Below, in pieces: positions 12,229 to 45,828 of a stretch of DNA of 64,000 bases (position 1 is its first letter; every line of letters begins with the position of its first letter). The position numbers and the translations under genes were made by a program. The notes under the pieces are model-generated. The model searched no databases. It was given only the letters and a program-made list of their open reading frames with translations, and was not told where the DNA came from. This stretch comes from a virus, in the IMG/VR virus record IMGVR_UViG_3300028920_000032, positions 94,330-158,329 of that record. One strand, 5' to 3'.

Positions 12229-12423
12229 TTATTTATTTTCTTTTATATATTCTTGAATTTCAGTAAATCTATTTGAAAATTCATCCCATTCATCAACAGA
12301 CATAGAAATACCCTTCCCAGGTCTCAACTCTCCGTCTTTTTCAAACCATTTTCTGATGTGCACATACTTTTTGCTTTTAAAATCACTAATATGTATTTTG
12401 ATATCTTTTCCTATATTAATCAT
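12229..12423 (-). CDS. PC4/YdbC-like single-stranded nucleic-acid-binding protein
   Basis: FKSKKYVHIRKWF..DGELRPGKGISMS..EW signature. Confidence 0.85.
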   Translation of the reverse strand: MINIGKDIKIHISDFKSKKYVHIRKWFEKDGELRPGKGISMSVDEWDEFSNRFTEIQEYIKENK

Positions 12424-12459
12424 TGCTTTCTTCCTCTTAAAATTTTAGCTAAGAACTTA

Positions 12460-14067
12460 TTAAATTTCATCATTAGCAACCATTTGTATCATTTTTGGTG
12501 TCTGTGATGTGAATGATGCAACATCATATGATCTTGGATCTTTTGGGTCTACAAGAGAAACGCGGTCGCTGTATGGTACTAATGTAATATATATTGATTT
12601 AGCATTTGGATTAATTTTACTTCTGTATTCTTTTAATGCTTGCGATGGGTGTCTATGACCTGTCCATGATTCTGAGTCAGTAACAAATACGAATACATCA
12701 GCAAATATATCATTTTTAATTGCATAGTCATATGCAACTGAAGCATTAGTGCCACCAAAATTTCCTGGCCATACACCAGACCCCCAATCTACGATTTCAC
12801 TGTAAGAACAGTTTTTTGTAATTCTCTGTAGAACTTTGAATCGTGTATCAAATCCACCAACGAAGTAGTTCTTTTCTGATTTAACAGATGCAAGGGCTAA
12901 TATACCAGCAACTTGATATGGAGCTAACCACATGTTGCCGACCATGTTACCTGTCATAGAGCCTGAAACATCAAGAGCATAGAAAAACTGTTTACCTGTT
13001 GGTTCTAGAACTTCGAAACAGTCTTGAATTCCTTGATTCATTATATCGAGTATTCTTGGTACTGTATTCCATGTCAACTTAGATCTTCCAAGATGGCCGC
13101 CACTCTGGTAAACTAACAATGCTGATGCAAAATTAATTGGATGAATGTAAGCTTTTGCTAAATTTTCTTTAGATAATTTTTTCTCAAGAAGATCGAGATT
13201 AGCCACATTCTTAAAAATACCTTTTTCAGTTAAGTTGCCTAAATTTCTTATTGTGGCTCCTACTGGCATATTGTGAAATAAAGCTTCCCAAATACCTGTA
13301 GTTCTTTTGATATTAGCTGGAATCATTTCATGAGTAAGTTTGAGGTCATTGATCATAAGAATAACTGCATCTTCTGAAGTTGATGCGCTTTTAAGAATTT
13401 CATATCCTGCAATCCTATTCAAGCCATTCGCTTCAACTATATTAAAGCCTTTGCCTACAGCCCATTTATAAACAGAGTTCTTGTTTACATCCTCAGTTTT
13501 TGGTTTAAACTTTCTTAAGATGTCAGCATGTGTCCATCCATTCCTATTCTGGTACTTAAGCAATTGGTACTCAAGTTCTTTCGCTTCTTTTGCATCCAAC
13601 CATCCATTTACAGCTTTGTGAATAACAGAACCAAATCCTCTCATGTCTTTAACATAAGATGTGAACTCATAAAGATGTGAAGCAGTTCTGATAACAGAAT
13701 TGAAGATGTCTCTGAATACATTCTTTGAAGATGCATCACCCATCGACAACACCACAAGAGCAAATATTGGTGTATGTACAGATGTACCCTTTTTAGAAGC
13801 ATCTATGATTTCTTCACCAACTTTAGATGCATTCGCTTTGATACAACGGTTAAGAACTTTAATGTTTGCTTCTGTCATTTCTTCTTTGCCTTGGTAATAA
13901 GCTCCAGACATAGAACCAACTAATAACCATCGTCTTAAAGCTGTCCAATCACTAGCTTTAAAACTATAACCGCCGGCTAAATTCTTTTTCATTTCACTTT
14001 CTCTACCTGGAATTGGTTTATTTTGAGGCGTCTCTTTTCTATTTTTTCCAACAAAATTATAATTCAT
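12460..14067 (-). CDS. rsr: Ro60/Rsr TROVE-domain RNA-binding protein
   Basis: NxAGGY, LRRWL, KYQNRNGWTHADILR, IRNLG, HP, vWA DVSGSM, GGT, TDSE motifs. Confidence 0.95.
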   Translation of the reverse strand: MNYNFVGKNRKETPQNKPIPGRESEMKKNLAGGYSFKASDWTALRRWLLVGSMSGAYYQGKEEMTEANIKVLNRCIKANASKVGEEIIDASKKGTSVHTPIFALVVLSMGDASSKNVFRDIFNSVIRTASHLYEFTSYVKDMRGFGSVIHKAVNGWLDAKEAKELEYQLLKYQNRNGWTHADILRKFKPKTEDVNKNSVYKWAVGKGFNIVEANGLNRIAGYEILKSASTSEDAVILMINDLKLTHEMIPANIKRTTGIWEALFHNMPVGATIRNLGNLTEKGIFKNVANLDLLEKKLSKENLAKAYIHPINFASALLVYQSGGHLGRSKLTWNTVPRILDIMNQGIQDCFEVLEPTGKQFFYALDVSGSMTGNMVGNMWLAPYQVAGILALASVKSEKNYFVGGFDTRFKVLQRITKNCSYSEIVDWGSGVWPGNFGGTNASVAYDYAIKNDIFADVFVFVTDSESWTGHRHPSQALKEYRSKINPNAKSIYITLVPYSDRVSLVDPKDPRSYDVASFTSQTPKMIQMVANDEI

Positions 14068-14150
14068 ATTAAACCTCCTTCAGCTCTCATAATGAGAACA
14101 AAATAAATATTTTGAGACTTGCTTCTATTCATTTATTAGTAAAAGAAATG

Positions 14151-14219
14151 AATAAAGAGCAAGTTGGTTGATAAAGGGTTAACCCATGAACGATAACCTC
14201 TACCATTCAGCTCTTTATT
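14151..14219 (-). ncRNA. Y RNA candidate 1 (short), directly upstream of ro60
   Basis: 10-bp terminal stem AATAAAGAGC/GCTCTTTATT enclosing TGAAT..GGTTATCG...AACTT, a motif shared with three other loci. Confidence 0.75.
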
Positions 14220-14278
14220 AAAGATTATAATTCTATAATCGATATTGTGTTCATAAATAATATATGCGACTAAAAAAG

Positions 14279-14323
14279 TTCTCCATGGCCTTCTATGCTT
14301 ATAATAGCTCCAGCCATGGAGAA
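14279..14323 (-). terminator. Hairpin between the RNase P-like RNA and Y RNA 1
   Basis: TTCTCCATGGC...GCCATGGAGAA inverted repeat. Confidence 0.45.
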
Positions 14324-14345
14324 TTAAATATTTAATCTTCTAACG

Positions 14346-14664
14346 AATAAATCAGCAACTGTATAGCCGGCTTTGTCATCAACTTAGTGATCATACATCT
14401 AATTATAAAGTTGAAAGTTGGAGTTTGCCGTTTCCTTTTAATTATAATCGTTCTTTCAAAATTAGGTTTTGTGAGCATTGCTCTTATCAAGCGTCCCTGA
14501 TAAATAACAGTGTTTACTGCTGAGCATTTTCAGACTTGAGAGCGGAACAATATCTATATGTGCCCTCTACTAGACTTACTTCATGATCACTAATAAAAGC
14601 AGTATTTCCAGTAACTTACTAAGCTGACACTAACTAATTTTAAATATAACAGAACTGATTTACC
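14346..14664 (-). ncRNA. Structured ~320-nt ncRNA with RNase P-like conserved-region motifs
   Basis: Terminal stem GGTAAATCAG/CTGATTTATT, helix TTAGTGATCAT/ATGATCACTAA; motifs GAAGTAAGTC, CACAAAA, GGAAACGGCAAACTCC, AGATGTATGA, ACAAAGCCGGCTA in RNase P order; P4 imperfect. Confidence 0.45.
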
Positions 14665-14685
14665 GTCGAATATAAACGGTGTTTA

Positions 14686-14809
14686 CGAGCTAGTGAGTGT
14701 TAGATGGTATAACTTGGCTGGCTTAATAGTCTAAGTCAAAACGTTTAATACTTGTCATTAAGACAATTCTTGTATACTATCATGTCGATAACCATCTAAA
14801 TTCAGCTCG
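14686..14809 (-). ncRNA. Y RNA candidate 2
   Basis: CGAGC/GCTCG terminal stem, TGAAT, TTAGATGG/CCATCTAA helix, GGTTATCG, CACTAG. Confidence 0.7.
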
Positions 14810-44240: not shown

Positions 44241-44577
44241 ATTACTTATCCCTTTCTTTATATTTTTCTTTCTTCAAATAACCAAGAAAAATCTATAGAG
44301 CTATCATATCCTGTAGATAAAGATAATATAAGCAATGAAATTAGACAAGATCCAACTCCAACACCGAATACAGAATATATAGCTACTATAATTGGCGTAG
44401 AAATATGTGTGAAAGTGTGCGCTACAGCCGTAATAATATAACAGTGACTGATAATATTAATAACACAAATGCAACGCATGTTTTCATTTCATTATCATTT
44501 TTTGGTCTTCTCATAATATTTTATCCTTTCATAACAAATATGTCATTTATTTGCCAATTTATAGAACAATAAAAATA

Positions 44578-44648
44578 TGGAGGTCCCGGTGATCGAAACC
44601 GGTCCATCGGATCTTCAATCCACTGCGCTACCATTACGCTAAACCTCC
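44578..44648 (-). tRNA. tRNA-Phe(GAA)
   Basis: GGAGGTT/GACCTCC, loop TTGAAGA; weak upper anticodon stem. Confidence 0.75.
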
Positions 44649-44653
44649 ATAAA

Positions 44654-44729
44654 AATCTAAACAAGTTATATGAAGAGGATTCTTTTAGATTAACAGTCTA
44701 CGATAACCTCTATCAATTCAGTTTAGATT
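44654..44729 (-). ncRNA. Y RNA candidate 3, with Asn-like anticodon stem-loop
   Basis: AATCTAAAC/GTTTAGATT stem, TGAAT..GAGGTTATCG, TAGA-CTGTTAA-TCTA, AACTTG. Confidence 0.7.
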
Positions 44730-44730
44730 A

Positions 44731-44803
44731 AGTTCGGAGTGAGATTTGAACTCACGATAATAGGGTTGCAACCTACCGCCTTAAACCACTTGGCTATCCG
44801 AAC
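44731..44803 (-). tRNA. tRNA-Cys(GCA)
   Basis: GTTCGGA/TCCGAAC, loop TTGCAAC, U73. Confidence 0.88.
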
Positions 44804-44884
44804 ATAAAGCAGCTTATCTTCATAGTGTCAGTCTATGTTAATAAGCCACTCGCAGTAAAGTATCTGACATATACAATACTACTC

Positions 44885-44955
44885 TAGCCCTAAACGGATT
44901 CGAACCGATGTGACCTAGCTGAAAACCAGGCAGCCTGCCTTTAGCTGATAGGGCC
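44885..44955 (-). tRNA. tRNA-Glu(TTC)
   Basis: GGCCCTA/TAGGGCT, loop TTTTCAG; paralog of 29847..29917. Confidence 0.85.
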
Positions 44956-45689
44956 ATCAAATCACCAAATTTCTAAACCTTCACCACCAGTATCATCTTC
45001 GATATAAAATATATTACCTGATGAAAATTTAATTTTTATTGAATAAAAATCATCGATATTTATTGAATTTATAGTTTTTCCAACTTCATTAGAGAGTGCT
45101 TTATCATCTTCATTATAAATACCAACTACATTACCACCTGCAGGTGCAATATTATATTTTATCTCATTTATAGTAAGATATAAAATACCACTTTTTAAAT
45201 AACTAACTTTATCTAAAACAGAACCAACAGAATTCTTCAAATTCTCTCTTAGTATGTCTATTTCTTTTATTTCACTGTTCTCTTTATGTTTTAAAAAAAT
45301 ATGCACACTGCAATAGAAGAAGTTATACCCATTACTAAGTAAGCAAAGAAATAGATTGGAATAAATTTCCAATGACTCAATTGCAAACTACCTAAATACA
45401 TTAGCATTGAGAAAAAGAAAAGTATTGAAGGTGCTAGAATAAAATGTTTTCTTTGGATCATTCTAATTCTCCAATCTTTGTTATTGCCCATGCTGTTTTC
45501 CAGTTATTGCCAAGAAAAAGAAATATATCATTTCCTAAAGTAAAAGTTACCCAACCATTGCCCAAGTAGTTTATATTCTTTGCATTAAGTGGTAATAAAT
45601 AACTTTTTTCAGATTGACATGATAAAAACAAAACAATAATTACAACTAATAAAATAATTATTTTCTTCATATTATCTCCTTTCAAAATA

Positions 45690-45828
45690 AAGTAAGCAAG
45701 TTAGCGAATAAAGAAAATTTAAACTCTACCAACTGAGCTACCACCAAGCTTTGCTTGATGAGCAGGACTCGAACCTGCGACCTTTTGTTTTTAAGACAAA
45801 CGATAACCTTTATTCAATCAGCTTACTT
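45690..45828 (-). ncRNA. yrlA: YrlA-type Y RNA (circularly permuted tRNA-mimic domain)
   Basis: AAGTAAGC/GCTTACTT stem, TGATT..AGGTTATCG, then TTTGT-CTTAAAA-ACAAA, T arm GCAGG-TTCGAGT-CCTGC, closed acceptor CATCAAGC/GCTTGGTG, D arm TAGCTCAGTTGGTAGAG, AACTTG. Confidence 0.88.

What the first reader, a model, noticed from the sequence alone, without database searches (positions are those of the whole stretch)
12229..45828. Phage Ro60 with a family of four Y RNAs carrying different effector modules
Seen: four minus-strand loci (14151-14219, 14686-14809, 44654-44729, 45690-45828) share a terminal stem followed by CTGAWT-N5-6-GGTTATCG at the 5' side and (A/C)ACTWG at the 3' side. Two lie in the ~750 nt upstream of ro60 and two lie ~30 kb away inside the tRNA array. 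What follows GGTTATCG differs: almost nothing; a multi-hairpin; an isolated Asn-type anticodon stem-loop (TAGA-CTGTTAA-TCTA); and a full permuted tRNA mimic with its own anticodon-like loop (CT-TAA-AA). Known: bacterial Rsr binds Y RNAs, and the YrlA class mimics tRNA. Inference: a modular Ro60-RNP set, possibly presenting decoy anticodon loops to host anticodon nucleases. The PC4-like gene just downstream of ro60 may be a partner.
Basis: partly seen in the sequence, partly recalled or inferred. Interest (0 to 1): 0.86.

Follow-up and report, generated by a model that had tools for sequence, protein, structure and literature searches.

The report
Phage Ro60 with four Y RNAs
An uncultured 158-kb phage encodes the ring-shaped RNA-binding protein Ro60 and four small partner RNAs (Y RNAs) that share one protein-binding handle but carry different tips, one a rearranged tRNA; phage Ro60 with Y RNAs is already in print, so this is a clear new example, not a new kind of system.

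Summary
GGTTATCG occurs four times in the 158-kb contig. All four copies are on the minus strand, each 11-12 nt after CTGA(A/T)T (expected 0.01).

All four fold the same way: terminal stem, bulged U (absent in locus 2), G·U/A-U, internal loop, upper stem, GGUUAUC, then a different tip.

Covariance models built from other phages and bacteria recover them:
- Locus 1 (a seed member): 56.8 bits.
- Locus 3: 29.6 bits.
- Locus 2: 22.0 bits.
- Locus 4: 71.6 bits, E 1.5e-17, full length, with a model of tRNA-like Y RNAs.

The gene at 12460-14067 is a complete Ro60 (TROVE plus vWA). GGTTATC is about 15-fold enriched upstream of ro60 in 80 viral and 42 bacterial loci. All 64 model hits lie on the ro60 strand, and many loci hold 3-7 copies.

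These are real Y RNAs, and locus 4 is the published YrlA type. Phage Ro60 with Y RNAs is known (Chen 2014; phage phiLo 2025), and this scan met similar arrays on other DNA.

The anticodon-nuclease decoy idea is untested and was already floated for YrlA. Anticodon-like CUNNNAA loops do recur across the class.

The PC4 link is not supported: no PC4 gene lies beside ro60 in about 120 other loci.

The parts
12460..14067 (-). Ro60/Rsr gene, 535 aa (TROVE ring plus vWA domain with the MIDAS motif DVSGSM)
   Evidence: Pfam TROVE 3.3e-22 and vWA_Ro60 1.2e-27. Full-length matches to solved Ro60 of human/Xenopus (E 3e-59, 4e-59) and to D. radiodurans Rsr (3e-57). Conserved residues in alignment A1.
14151..14219 (-). 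Y RNA 1 (69 nt): 10-bp terminal stem, bulged U, G·U/A-U, 8-bp upper stem; GGUUAUC pairs with GUUAACC (one U·U mismatch) under a small loop
   Evidence: Fold z -3.94. Model R1 scores 56.8 bits, E 1.8e-11, but this RNA is a seed member. A promoter-like TGAACA-18-TATAAT ends 5 nt upstream at 14224; this is a consensus match only.
14686..14809 (-). Y RNA 2 (124 nt): same handle but without the bulge (CUG pairs with UAG); the tip has about three hairpins
   Evidence: R1 scores 22.0 bits, E 0.005; this RNA was not in the seed. Fold.
44654..44729 (-). Y RNA 3 (76 nt): same handle; the tip is a 4-bp hairpin with the 7-nt loop CUGUUAA. It fills the whole gap between tRNA-Cys and tRNA-Phe.
   Evidence: R1 scores 29.6 bits, E 7e-5; not in the seed. 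The flanking tRNAs lie at 44731-44803 and 44577-44649. The loop is identical to that of the phage tRNA-Asn(GUU).
45690..45828 (-). Y RNA 4 (139 nt), YrlA type: handle, hairpin UUUGU-CUUAAAA-ACAAA, 5-nt linker ending in C, T arm, closed 8-bp acceptor stem, U-A, D arm. It starts 2 nt after tRNA-Ala.
   Evidence: Model R2, built from 12 tRNA-like Y RNAs of other genomes, scores 71.6 bits, E 1.5e-17, over model positions 1-132. Rfam YrlA scores 34.9 bits, E 1.7e-5, below the gathering score of 69. Rfam tRNA scores 37.4 bits on the 3' half of the mimic.
12229..12423 (-). PC4-like gene (64 aa), 36 nt downstream of ro60. It is a neighbour, probably co-transcribed, and is not shown to belong to the system.
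   Evidence: Pfam PC4 1.1e-16. No homolog beside ro60 in any other locus.
44577..44803 (-). tRNA-Cys, Y RNA 3, tRNA-Phe as one block. The tRNA ends would set both ends of Y RNA 3 through RNase Z and RNase P cuts (inferred).
   Evidence: ARAGORN and Rfam coordinates; sequence.
14270..14322 (-). Long hairpin (UCUCCAUGGC...GCCAUGGAGA) followed by a U run. It looks like a terminator between the upstream RNAs and Y RNA 1.
   Evidence: Read from the sequence. The simple terminator scan did not list it, because the loop is too long.

Best explanation
The four loci are genes for Y RNAs, the small RNAs that bind the outer face of the Ro60 ring, and they belong to the Ro60 that this phage encodes itself. 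All four share a Ro60-binding handle. It consists of a terminal stem, a bulged pyrimidine, a G·U and an A-U pair opposite the conserved CAACUUG, an upper stem, and GGUUAUC. Each RNA then displays a different tip, which is the part that in studied systems tethers Ro60 to another factor or gates its cavity. Y RNA 4 displays a whole tRNA shape with a closed acceptor end (the YrlA type). Y RNA 3 displays only an anticodon-arm-like hairpin. Y RNAs 1 and 2 lie just upstream of ro60 and are probably made with it. Y RNAs 3 and 4 lie inside the tRNA operon and are probably cut out by the enzymes that trim the flanking tRNAs. Shown here: the sequence and structure family, its conservation, and its linkage to ro60. 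Inferred: binding, processing and function. By analogy with D. radiodurans, Salmonella and Thermus phage phiLo, the likeliest function is to aim Ro60, together with a host 3'-to-5' exonuclease such as PNPase or tRNA-binding proteins, at structured or misfolded RNAs during infection.
For: The motif statistics are strong. All four share one fold, and the upper stem differs in sequence among the four copies yet stays paired in each. In a 17-sequence alignment from phages and bacteria the lower helix is 100% paired, with compensatory changes in 7 of 10 pairs. The upper helix shows them in 6 of 8 pairs, and 0 of 500 shuffles reach the observed covariation score. Model R1 finds loci 3 and 2, which were not in its seed, and nothing else in the window or contig. 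Model R2, with no window sequence in it, finds locus 4 at 71.6 bits over its full length. GGTTATC occurs at 1.04/kb in the 1.2 kb upstream of ro60 against 0.072/kb elsewhere in 80 viral loci. The figures are 1.16 against 0.068 in 42 bacterial loci, with 36 of 42 positive. All 64 R1 hits in 75 viral loci are on the ro60 strand. Of 80 contigs fetched by the bare motif, only 6 pass the model, and all 6 carry a TROVE gene. The protein is a complete Ro60. The closest relatives have 3-4 such RNAs in tandem before ro60, including a tRNA-like one whose hairpin loop, CUUAAAA in L010, is identical to that of Y RNA 4. Published precedent exists: YrlA in 254 bacteria and 22 phages (PMC4201824), and phiLo Ro60 binding two upstream Y-like RNAs and host PNPase (PMC12135203).
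Against: There is no expression, processing or binding data. The 5' motif differs from the published GNCGAAN0-1G at one position (GCUGAAUG, U for C). Locus 2 has no bulge. Rfam's YrlA model scores locus 4 at only half its gathering score, and no Rfam family reports loci 1-3 at E up to 10. Loci 3 and 4 lie 30 kb from ro60, outside the 4-kb rule used in the literature. The contig encodes no RtcB or RNA ligase, which are frequent Ro60 companions in bacteria, but it is only about 70% complete.
Confidence: 0.8

Rival explanations
1. Decoy reading. The tRNA-like and anticodon-arm-like tips, held on Ro60, act as baits or competitive inhibitors for host nucleases that cut tRNA anticodon loops, and so protect the phage's tRNA pool. 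This concerns function and is compatible with the RNAs being Y RNAs.
For: The loop of Y RNA 3 is identical to the anticodon loop of the phage's tRNA-Asn. Across the class, the first hairpin after GGUUA has a 7-nt loop in 44 of 149 RNAs, and 15 of those read CUNNNAA, against 2.1% at random places in the same loci. The binomial P is about 1e-14, but this ignores relatedness. GUU recurs in unrelated loci (L057, L083, L091). The phage carries 31 tRNAs, and 20 of 60 viral Ro60 loci have tRNA genes within 4 kb. Hughes et al. 2020 proposed that YrlA might competitively inhibit an anticodon nuclease and showed that it is not cleaved by one.
Against: No nuclease, cleavage or protection data exist. The stem of Y RNA 3 is only 4 A-U-rich pairs. 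The loop of Y RNA 4 (CUUAAAA) differs from that of the phage's tRNA-Leu(UAA) (UUUAAAC). The close relative L016 has another triplet at the same place (CUAAUAA), so the 'anticodon' is not conserved. The published reading of this hairpin is a variable arm. Such loops may simply be left over from a tRNA origin, or be stable U-turn loops.
Confidence: 0.12
2. tRNA quality-control reading. Ro60 with the tRNA-shaped Y RNA works on the phage's own flood of tRNA precursors. It would capture misfolded or mis-processed tRNAs by their single-stranded 3' ends and hand them to processing or decay enzymes (RNase P, the CCA-adding enzyme, exonucleases).
For: Two of the four Y RNAs are embedded in the tRNA operon. 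Ro60 loci are often beside tRNA arrays in phages and bacteria. [quoted passage not shown] Ro60 is known to bind misfolded non-coding RNAs (PMC4726728).
Against: The evidence is only by association. tRNA arrays and ro60 may sit together simply because both are small-RNA genes in one early or middle operon. No substrate is known.
Confidence: 0.25
3. Not free-standing RNAs. The repeats would be cis elements (a leader of the ro60 mRNA that Ro60 binds to control itself) or decayed tRNA-derived spacers in the tRNA array.
For: I found no clear terminator between Y RNA 1 and ro60, only 84 nt with a weak hairpin. The promoter scans show no enrichment. Locus 4 contains real tRNA parts.
Against: The same handle closes RNAs at four separate places, two of them 30 kb from ro60. 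Both helices covary across phyla. The handle matches that of RNAs shown to be stable Ro60 partners in other organisms. Co-transcription followed by processing is the norm for bacterial Y RNAs.
Confidence: 0.06

Closest known systems
YrlA-type Y RNAs with Rsr/Ro60 of bacteria and mycobacteriophages (Chen et al. [quoted passage not shown] 2018, 10.1101/312249)
   Same: There is a Ro60-binding stem near the paired ends, with a GNCGAA-like 5' motif. A conserved YUAY is present, here UUAU inside GGUUAUC. The order is an optional 'V' hairpin, T arm, closed acceptor stem-loop, then D arm. The RNA lies on the same strand as ro60. Several Y RNAs per genome are common.
   Different: Locus 4 scores 34.9 bits against a gathering score of 69. 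However, the published phage ET08 YrlA scores only 37.4. The third base of the 5' motif is U. The 3' strand (CAACUUG) is conserved here, whereas the literature says only the 5' strand is conserved in bacteria. Locus 4 lies 30 kb from ro60, inside a tRNA array. The hairpin before the T arm has a 5-bp stem and a 7-nt CUNNNAA loop, which is what an anticodon arm looks like.
Thermus phage phiLo Ro60 with Yrl1 and Yrl2 (NAR 2025, PMC12135203; PDB 9KOP, 9L5Y)
   Same: The Ro60 is phage-encoded, with Y-like RNAs just upstream of the gene. The RNAs have a stem-bulge-stem layout with a CGAA-type motif. Binding was shown experimentally, and a complex with host PNPase was formed.
   Different: phiLo has two RNAs rather than four, and neither is reported as tRNA-like or as lying in a tRNA array. 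I did not compare the sequences.
Metazoan Y RNAs and nematode stem-bulge RNAs (Rfam RF01656 ceN72-3_ceN74-2; Kowalski and Krude 2015, PMC4726728)
   Same: The handle is nearly the same. The sbRNA consensus is UCGGUCCGGAG-ucgaUGGGUUAUC ... CCCAucgaCACCAACUUGACCG. The consensus of this class is GGGCCGAAG-uuaaugGGUUAUC ... CCcauuaaaaaCAACUUGCCC. UUAUC begins the loop right after the upper stem in both. Two relatives of the window RNAs pass the sbRNA gathering score: L076 at 38.5 and L112 at 41.3, against 38.
   Different: The window's own four RNAs do not hit this Rfam family. They are A+U-rich and have a bulged U instead of C. In animals UUAUC is tied to DNA replication activity, and sbRNAs were not found with Ro60 in worms. 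Here the motif travels with ro60.
RYPER of Deinococcus radiodurans (Rsr, Y RNA Yrn1, PNPase; Chen et al. 2013, as summarised in PMC4201824 and PMC4726728)
   Same: It provides the model for how such a particle works: the Y RNA handle sits on Ro60, and the other end tethers an exonuclease and gates the cavity.
   Different: No PNPase gene or binding site is identified here, and the partner of each tip is unknown.
Salmonella YrlB, a short Y RNA without a tRNA domain (Chen et al. 2013/2014)
   Same: It is a second, smaller Y RNA that shares only the Ro60 motif, like Y RNAs 1 and 3 here.
   Different: I had no sequence to compare. YrlB homologs were reported only in Salmonella.

Membership tests
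Ro60 / Rsr protein | TROVE (HEAT-repeat ring) domain | tested here: met
   PF05731 at 3.3e-22, above its cut-off.
Ro60 / Rsr protein | C-terminal vWA domain with a MIDAS motif | tested here: met
   PF25045 at 1.2e-27. D366, S368 and S370 are invariant in alignment A1.
Ro60 / Rsr protein | Full-length similarity to Ro60 proteins of known structure | tested here: met
   9nen 3e-59, 1yvp 4e-59 and 2nvo 3e-57, covering residues about 13-534.
Y RNA (general) | 5' and 3' ends pair into a stem that holds the conserved Ro60-binding helix with a bulged nucleotide | tested here: met
   Met for loci 1, 3 and 4 (bulged U, then G·U and A-U). Locus 2 has the helix without the bulge. The helix covaries across 17 relatives with 100% of cells paired.
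Y RNA (general) | 5'-strand motif GNCGAAN0-1G (bacteria) or GGUCCGA (animals) | tested here: inconclusive
   The window has G-C-U-G-A-A/U-U-G, with U instead of C at the third place. Relatives have GGCCGAAG, GGCCGGA or GGUCGAA.
Y RNA (general) | Encoded near ro60 on the same strand | tested here: met
   Loci 1 and 2 lie 84 and 619 nt upstream of ro60. Loci 3 and 4 are on the same strand but 30 kb away. In other genomes all 64 model hits are on the ro60 strand.
Y RNA (general) | Stable small RNA bound by Ro60 in the cell | not testable with these tools
   This needs northern blots, RIP or gel shifts.
YrlA (RF02553) | T arm, closed acceptor-like stem-loop and D arm, in that order, inside the Y RNA | tested here: met
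   The alignments to RF02553 and to model R2 both show it. G18, G19, the T-loop UUCGAGU, U8-A9 and a C at the end of the linker (allowing a G15:C48 pair) are read from the sequence.
YrlA (RF02553) | Score at or above Rfam's gathering score (69 bits) | tested here: not met
   34.9 bits. The published YrlA of phage ET08 also fails at 37.4 bits, as does Streptomyces phage Sham at 35.4, so the threshold excludes known phage members.
YrlA (RF02553) | Conserved YUAY just before the variable region | tested here: met
   UUAU lies within GGUUAUCG in all four RNAs. The feature is described in Chen 2014, section 6.
YrlA (RF02553) | Modified by tRNA enzymes (TruB, DusA) and folds into an L shape | not testable with these tools
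   This needs modification mapping or a structure.
Nematode stem-bulge RNA (RF01656) | Score at or above the gathering score (38 bits) | tested here: not met
   None of the four window RNAs hits at E up to 10. Relatives L076 3807-3870 (38.5) and L112 2852-2916 (41.3) do pass. This is a likeness of the handle; I do not file the window RNAs in this family.

The most novel reading that the evidence does not exclude
The phage uses one Ro60 ring as a carrier for a set of tRNA look-alikes: a whole rearranged tRNA and a bare Asn-type anticodon arm. These would intercept or blunt host enzymes that attack tRNA anticodon loops during infection. If so, the anticodon-like CUNNNAA loops that recur on Y RNAs of many phages and bacteria would each be tuned to a particular nuclease.
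Probability: 0.1. Interest if true: 0.8.

Novelty: new member of a known kind. Interest (0 to 1): 0.45.

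Why it matters
Ro60 and Y RNAs are conserved from bacteria to humans and are a lupus autoantigen, yet the role of the variable Y RNA tips is still largely unknown.

This phage adds a tidy natural example: one protein and four RNAs with the same handle and four different tips.

Three general points came out of the follow-up and may be more useful than the single locus:
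- The handle of a large class of phage and bacterial Y RNAs is almost the same as that of nematode stem-bulge RNAs and vertebrate Y RNAs. The likeness includes UUAUC, which in animals has been linked to DNA replication and not to Ro60.
- Arrays of up to seven such RNAs beside ro60 are common.
- Their tips often look like anticodon arms.

Together these give concrete constructs for asking what the UUAUC element binds and which partners the tips recruit.

Tried and rejected
- **Cultured relatives.** blastn of the locus against cultured phages gave no match. tblastn of an 806-aa neighbour also gave none. I therefore inferred no host.
- **Promoter and terminator scans.** They showed no enrichment over shuffles. 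One promoter-like site just before Y RNA 1 is only a consensus match.
- **Automatic structure.** MAFFT plus RNAalifold recovered only the lower stem. I wrote the upper stem by hand and tested it with pair counts.
- **Bare-motif scan.** A scan of all viral contigs for GCCGAAG-N4-8-GGTTATC is dominated by chance matches; 74 of 80 loci fail the model. The motif alone is not a usable detector.
- **PC4 as partner.** No homolog lies beside any other ro60. I did not run a complex prediction because I do not claim binding.
- **RNA repair companions.** There is no RtcB. The weak RNA-ligase hit at 59903-61222 is an ATP-dependent DNA ligase.
- **A fifth copy.** Models R1 and R2 find none in the window or contig. 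The lower R2 hits are junctions of neighbouring tRNAs.
- **Papers not held.** The Sim/Wolin reviews and Burroughs and Aravind 2016 could not be read, and no supplementary tables of Chen 2014 are held. I could not check which phages and how many Y RNAs per phage were already listed.

Full report
**What is there.** The window is the last 64 kb of a 158,329-bp uncultured virus contig, about 70% complete. It holds 31 tRNA genes, all on the minus strand. The ORF at 12460-14067 (minus) is a complete Ro60. Pfam gives TROVE 3.3e-22 and the Ro60 vWA domain 1.2e-27. The ORF aligns end to end with solved Ro60 of human and Xenopus and with Rsr of Deinococcus, at E 3e-59 to 3e-57. The 64-aa ORF 36 nt downstream is a PC4-family protein, 1.1e-16.

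**The observation.** GGTTATCG occurs four times in the window, at the four places named, all on the minus strand. The expectation is 0.39, and no shuffle reaches 4. With the upstream CTGAWT the expectation falls to 0.01. The rest of the contig has no further copy.

Each locus folds with a terminal stem of 6-10 bp and an upper stem of 8-9 bp that ends in the GG of GGUUAUC. The upper-stem sequences differ among the four copies, but each stays paired.

Read against relatives, the layout is:
- a lower stem;
- a bulged U;
- a G·U and an A-U pair formed by GA with the UU of (A)ACUUG;
- an asymmetric internal loop;
- the upper stem;
- GGUUAUCG;
- the tip.

Locus 2 differs in one respect: its U pairs with the A of CACUAG, so there is no bulge.

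**Are they a real RNA family?** I fetched Ro60 loci from elsewhere: 80 viral contigs and 42 bacterial genomes of many phyla.
- In the viral loci GGTTATC occurs at 1.04 per kb in the 1.2 kb upstream of ro60 on its strand, against 0.072 per kb elsewhere. 45 of 80 loci have at least one copy, and many have 3-7 in a row.
- In the bacterial loci the figures are 1.16 against 0.068 per kb, with 36 of 42 loci positive.

I aligned 17 short members (alignment A2) and counted pairs. Only one of the 17 is from the window.
- The lower helix, including the G·U/A-U pairs, is paired in 100% of cells and has compensatory changes in 7 of 10 pairs.
- The upper helix is paired in 71% of cells in the raw MAFFT alignment and has compensatory changes in 6 of 8 pairs.
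- No shuffle out of 500 and no slid register comes near the observed score.

The covariance model R1 built from this alignment was run on the window with filters off.
- Locus 1 scores 56.8 bits; it is in the seed.
- Locus 3 scores 29.6 bits, E 7e-5.
- Locus 2 scores 22.0 bits, E 0.005.
- Locus 4 scores only 8.7 bits, because its 100-nt insert is penalised.
- Nothing else of note appears.

On 75 viral Ro60 loci R1 gives 64 hits at E 0.01 or better, and every one is on the ro60 strand.

I built a second model, R2, from 12 tRNA-like members of other phages and bacteria. It finds window 45690-45828 at 71.6 bits, E 1.5e-17, over the whole model. The next hits are junctions of adjacent tRNAs.

As a specificity check I fetched 80 viral stretches carrying the bare motif GCCGAAG-N4-8-GGTTATC. 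Most are chance matches. Only six pass R1, and all six lie in contigs with a TROVE gene.

**Closest relatives.** Contigs whose Ro60 is 58-60% identical (L005/L016, L010) have three or four such RNAs in tandem right before ro60. The first in each is a tRNA-like one.
- In L010 its hairpin loop is CUUAAAA, the same as in window locus 4.
- In L016 the loop is CUAAUAA.
- Both lack the D arm that locus 4 has.

So the window phage has the usual set, but two members sit in the tRNA array 30 kb away. Y RNA 3 fills the whole 81-nt gap between tRNA-Cys and tRNA-Phe. Y RNA 4 starts 2 nt after tRNA-Ala. This suggests that tRNA-end processing releases them; that step is inferred.

Y RNAs among tRNA genes also occur elsewhere:
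- in contig L013, whose Ro60 is 50% identical;
- in cultured Streptomyces phage Sham.

20 of 60 viral Ro60 loci have tRNA genes within 4 kb.

**Comparison with what is known.** Chen et al. 2014 (PMC4201824) found YrlA-like RNAs next to ro60 in 254 bacteria and 22 phages. They defined these features:
- the 5' motif GNCGAAN0-1G;
- a conserved YUAY at the start of the variable region;
- an optional 'V' hairpin;
- the T arm;
- a closed acceptor-like stem-loop;
- the D arm.

Locus 4 has all of these. In the Salmonella crystal structure the conserved UA causes a kink in the stem that leads to the Ro60 site (10.1101/312249).

Rfam's YrlA model scores locus 4 at 34.9 bits, below its gathering score of 69. 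The published YrlA of mycobacteriophage ET08 scores only 37.4, so this failure does not set locus 4 apart from accepted phage members.

Thermus phage phiLo Ro60 binds two Y-like RNAs encoded just upstream and forms a complex with host PNPase (PMC12135203). Phage Ro60 with several Y RNAs is therefore a known kind. This scan has also met similar handle-plus-tRNA-mimic arrays on other DNA.

**A point that may be less well known.** The handle of this class is nearly the same as that of nematode stem-bulge RNAs, which are homologs of vertebrate Y RNAs.
- The Rfam RF01656 consensus reads UCGGUCCGGAG-ucgaUGGGUUAUC ... CCCAucgaCACCAACUUGACCG.
- The R1 consensus reads GGGCCGAAG-uuaaugGGUUAUC ... CCcauuaaaaaCAACUUGCCC.

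Two prokaryotic or viral members pass that family's gathering score: L076 at 38.5 and L112 at 41.3, against 38. The window's own RNAs do not hit it.

Kowalski and Krude 2015 describe UUAUC as needed for the DNA-replication activity of sbRNAs and as present in vertebrate Y RNAs. They describe the bacterial Y RNAs as not homologous to the vertebrate ones (PMC4726728). I found no paper in the held library that notes UUAUC in prokaryotic Y RNAs. Several key reviews are not held, however.

**The tips.** In short members GGUUAUC pairs with GAU(U)ACC, leaving a U bulged or mismatched, under a small loop.

Across 149 handles the first hairpin after GGUUA has a 7-nt loop in 44. Of those, 15 read CUNNNAA, the pattern of an anticodon loop. 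At random places in the same loci the figures are 9.6% and 2.1%. The binomial P is about 1e-14, but it ignores relatedness.

The loop of window Y RNA 3 (CUGUUAA) equals that of the phage's own tRNA-Asn. The same loop recurs in L057, L083 and L091.

So anticodon-arm-like tips are a real and recurrent feature. Whether they act as decoys for anticodon nucleases is untested. Hughes et al. 2020 already raised competitive inhibition of an anticodon nuclease by YrlA as a possibility, and they showed that YrlA is not cleaved in Salmonella.

Against a specific decoy:
- the triplet is not conserved between close relatives;
- the loop of Y RNA 4 differs from that of the phage tRNA-Leu(UAA);
- the stem of Y RNA 3 is weak.

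**PC4.** tblastn with the PC4 protein finds no homolog in any of about 120 other Ro60 loci, including 10-kb flanks of the closest relative. It is a neighbour, not a conserved partner.

**Other context.** The contig has no RtcB. Its one ligase is a DNA ligase. It does encode a CCA-adding enzyme.

**Verdict.** The four RNAs are genuine Y RNAs of a phage-encoded Ro60, and one is of the YrlA type. I put the identity at about 0.8. The way they work, with a handle on Ro60 and tips that recruit different partners, is inferred from studied systems. The particular partner of each tip is open. This is a new member of a known kind. Interest is moderate, and it rests mainly on the class-wide features that the follow-up brought out.

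Noticed in passing
L076:3807-3870 and L112:2852-2916: Two Y RNAs beside ro60, one in a viral contig and one in an Armatimonadota genome, pass the Rfam gathering score of the nematode stem-bulge RNA family RF01656 (38.5 and 41.3 against 38). The handle, including GGUUAUC and CAACUUG, is almost the same in worms and in these prokaryotic RNAs.
   Followed up: partly
window 14343-14666 (minus strand): The 324 nt between Y RNAs 2 and 1 are closed by AAUCAGU/GCUGAUU and by a helix CUGU(U)AUA/UAUACAG with a bulged U, which echoes the GGU(U)AUC helix. The 3' side reads CAGUUGCUGAUU, like the Y RNA 3' motif. The fold z-score is only -1.8, and models R1 and R2 do not find it. A long hairpin plus U run follows at 14270-14322.
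   Followed up: partly
L132 (Mycobacterium phage ET08) 2069-2141 and 2345-2414: Model R1 finds two more Y-like RNAs flanking the published YrlA (about 2205-2282) upstream of the Ro60 gene gp220. The second lies inside the annotated hypothetical CDS gp219 (2267-2440), which may therefore not be a protein gene.
   Followed up: partly
L133 (Streptomyces phage Sham) 383-498 and 589-706: A Y-like RNA and a YrlA-like RNA sit between tRNA-Pro, tRNA-Asp and tRNA-Ser in the tRNA array 2 kb upstream of the Ro-like gene. Neither is annotated in the record.
   Followed up: partly
L037:1928-2069: One member of a seven-copy Y RNA array carries its tRNA parts in the normal order (D arm, anticodon-like arm, T arm) instead of the YrlA order. 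Different attachment points of the tRNA body therefore coexist in one array.
   Followed up: no
L091 (Acidobacteriaceae bacterium KBS 96), L117, L118, L108, L119: In several bacterial genomes ro60 and its Y RNAs are flanked on one or both sides by long tRNA gene arrays on the same strand. These may be prophages or tRNA-array islands.
   Followed up: no
window 40183-41535 (minus strand): A 450-aa GGDEF-EAL protein (cyclic-di-GMP synthesis and breakdown domains) is encoded inside the phage tRNA island.
   Followed up: no
window 20412-21371 and 55802-59104 (minus strand): A DHH/DHHA1 phosphoesterase (the family that includes nanoRNases) lies among the tRNA genes. The anaerobic ribonucleotide reductase NrdD carries a LAGLIDADG endonuclease-like insertion.
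   Followed up: no
window 41992-42064 (minus strand): ARAGORN calls a tRNA with a two-base 'anticodon' (tt), and Rfam tRNA scores it at 46.6 bits. It is an odd tRNA next to the two tRNA-Lys genes.
   Followed up: no
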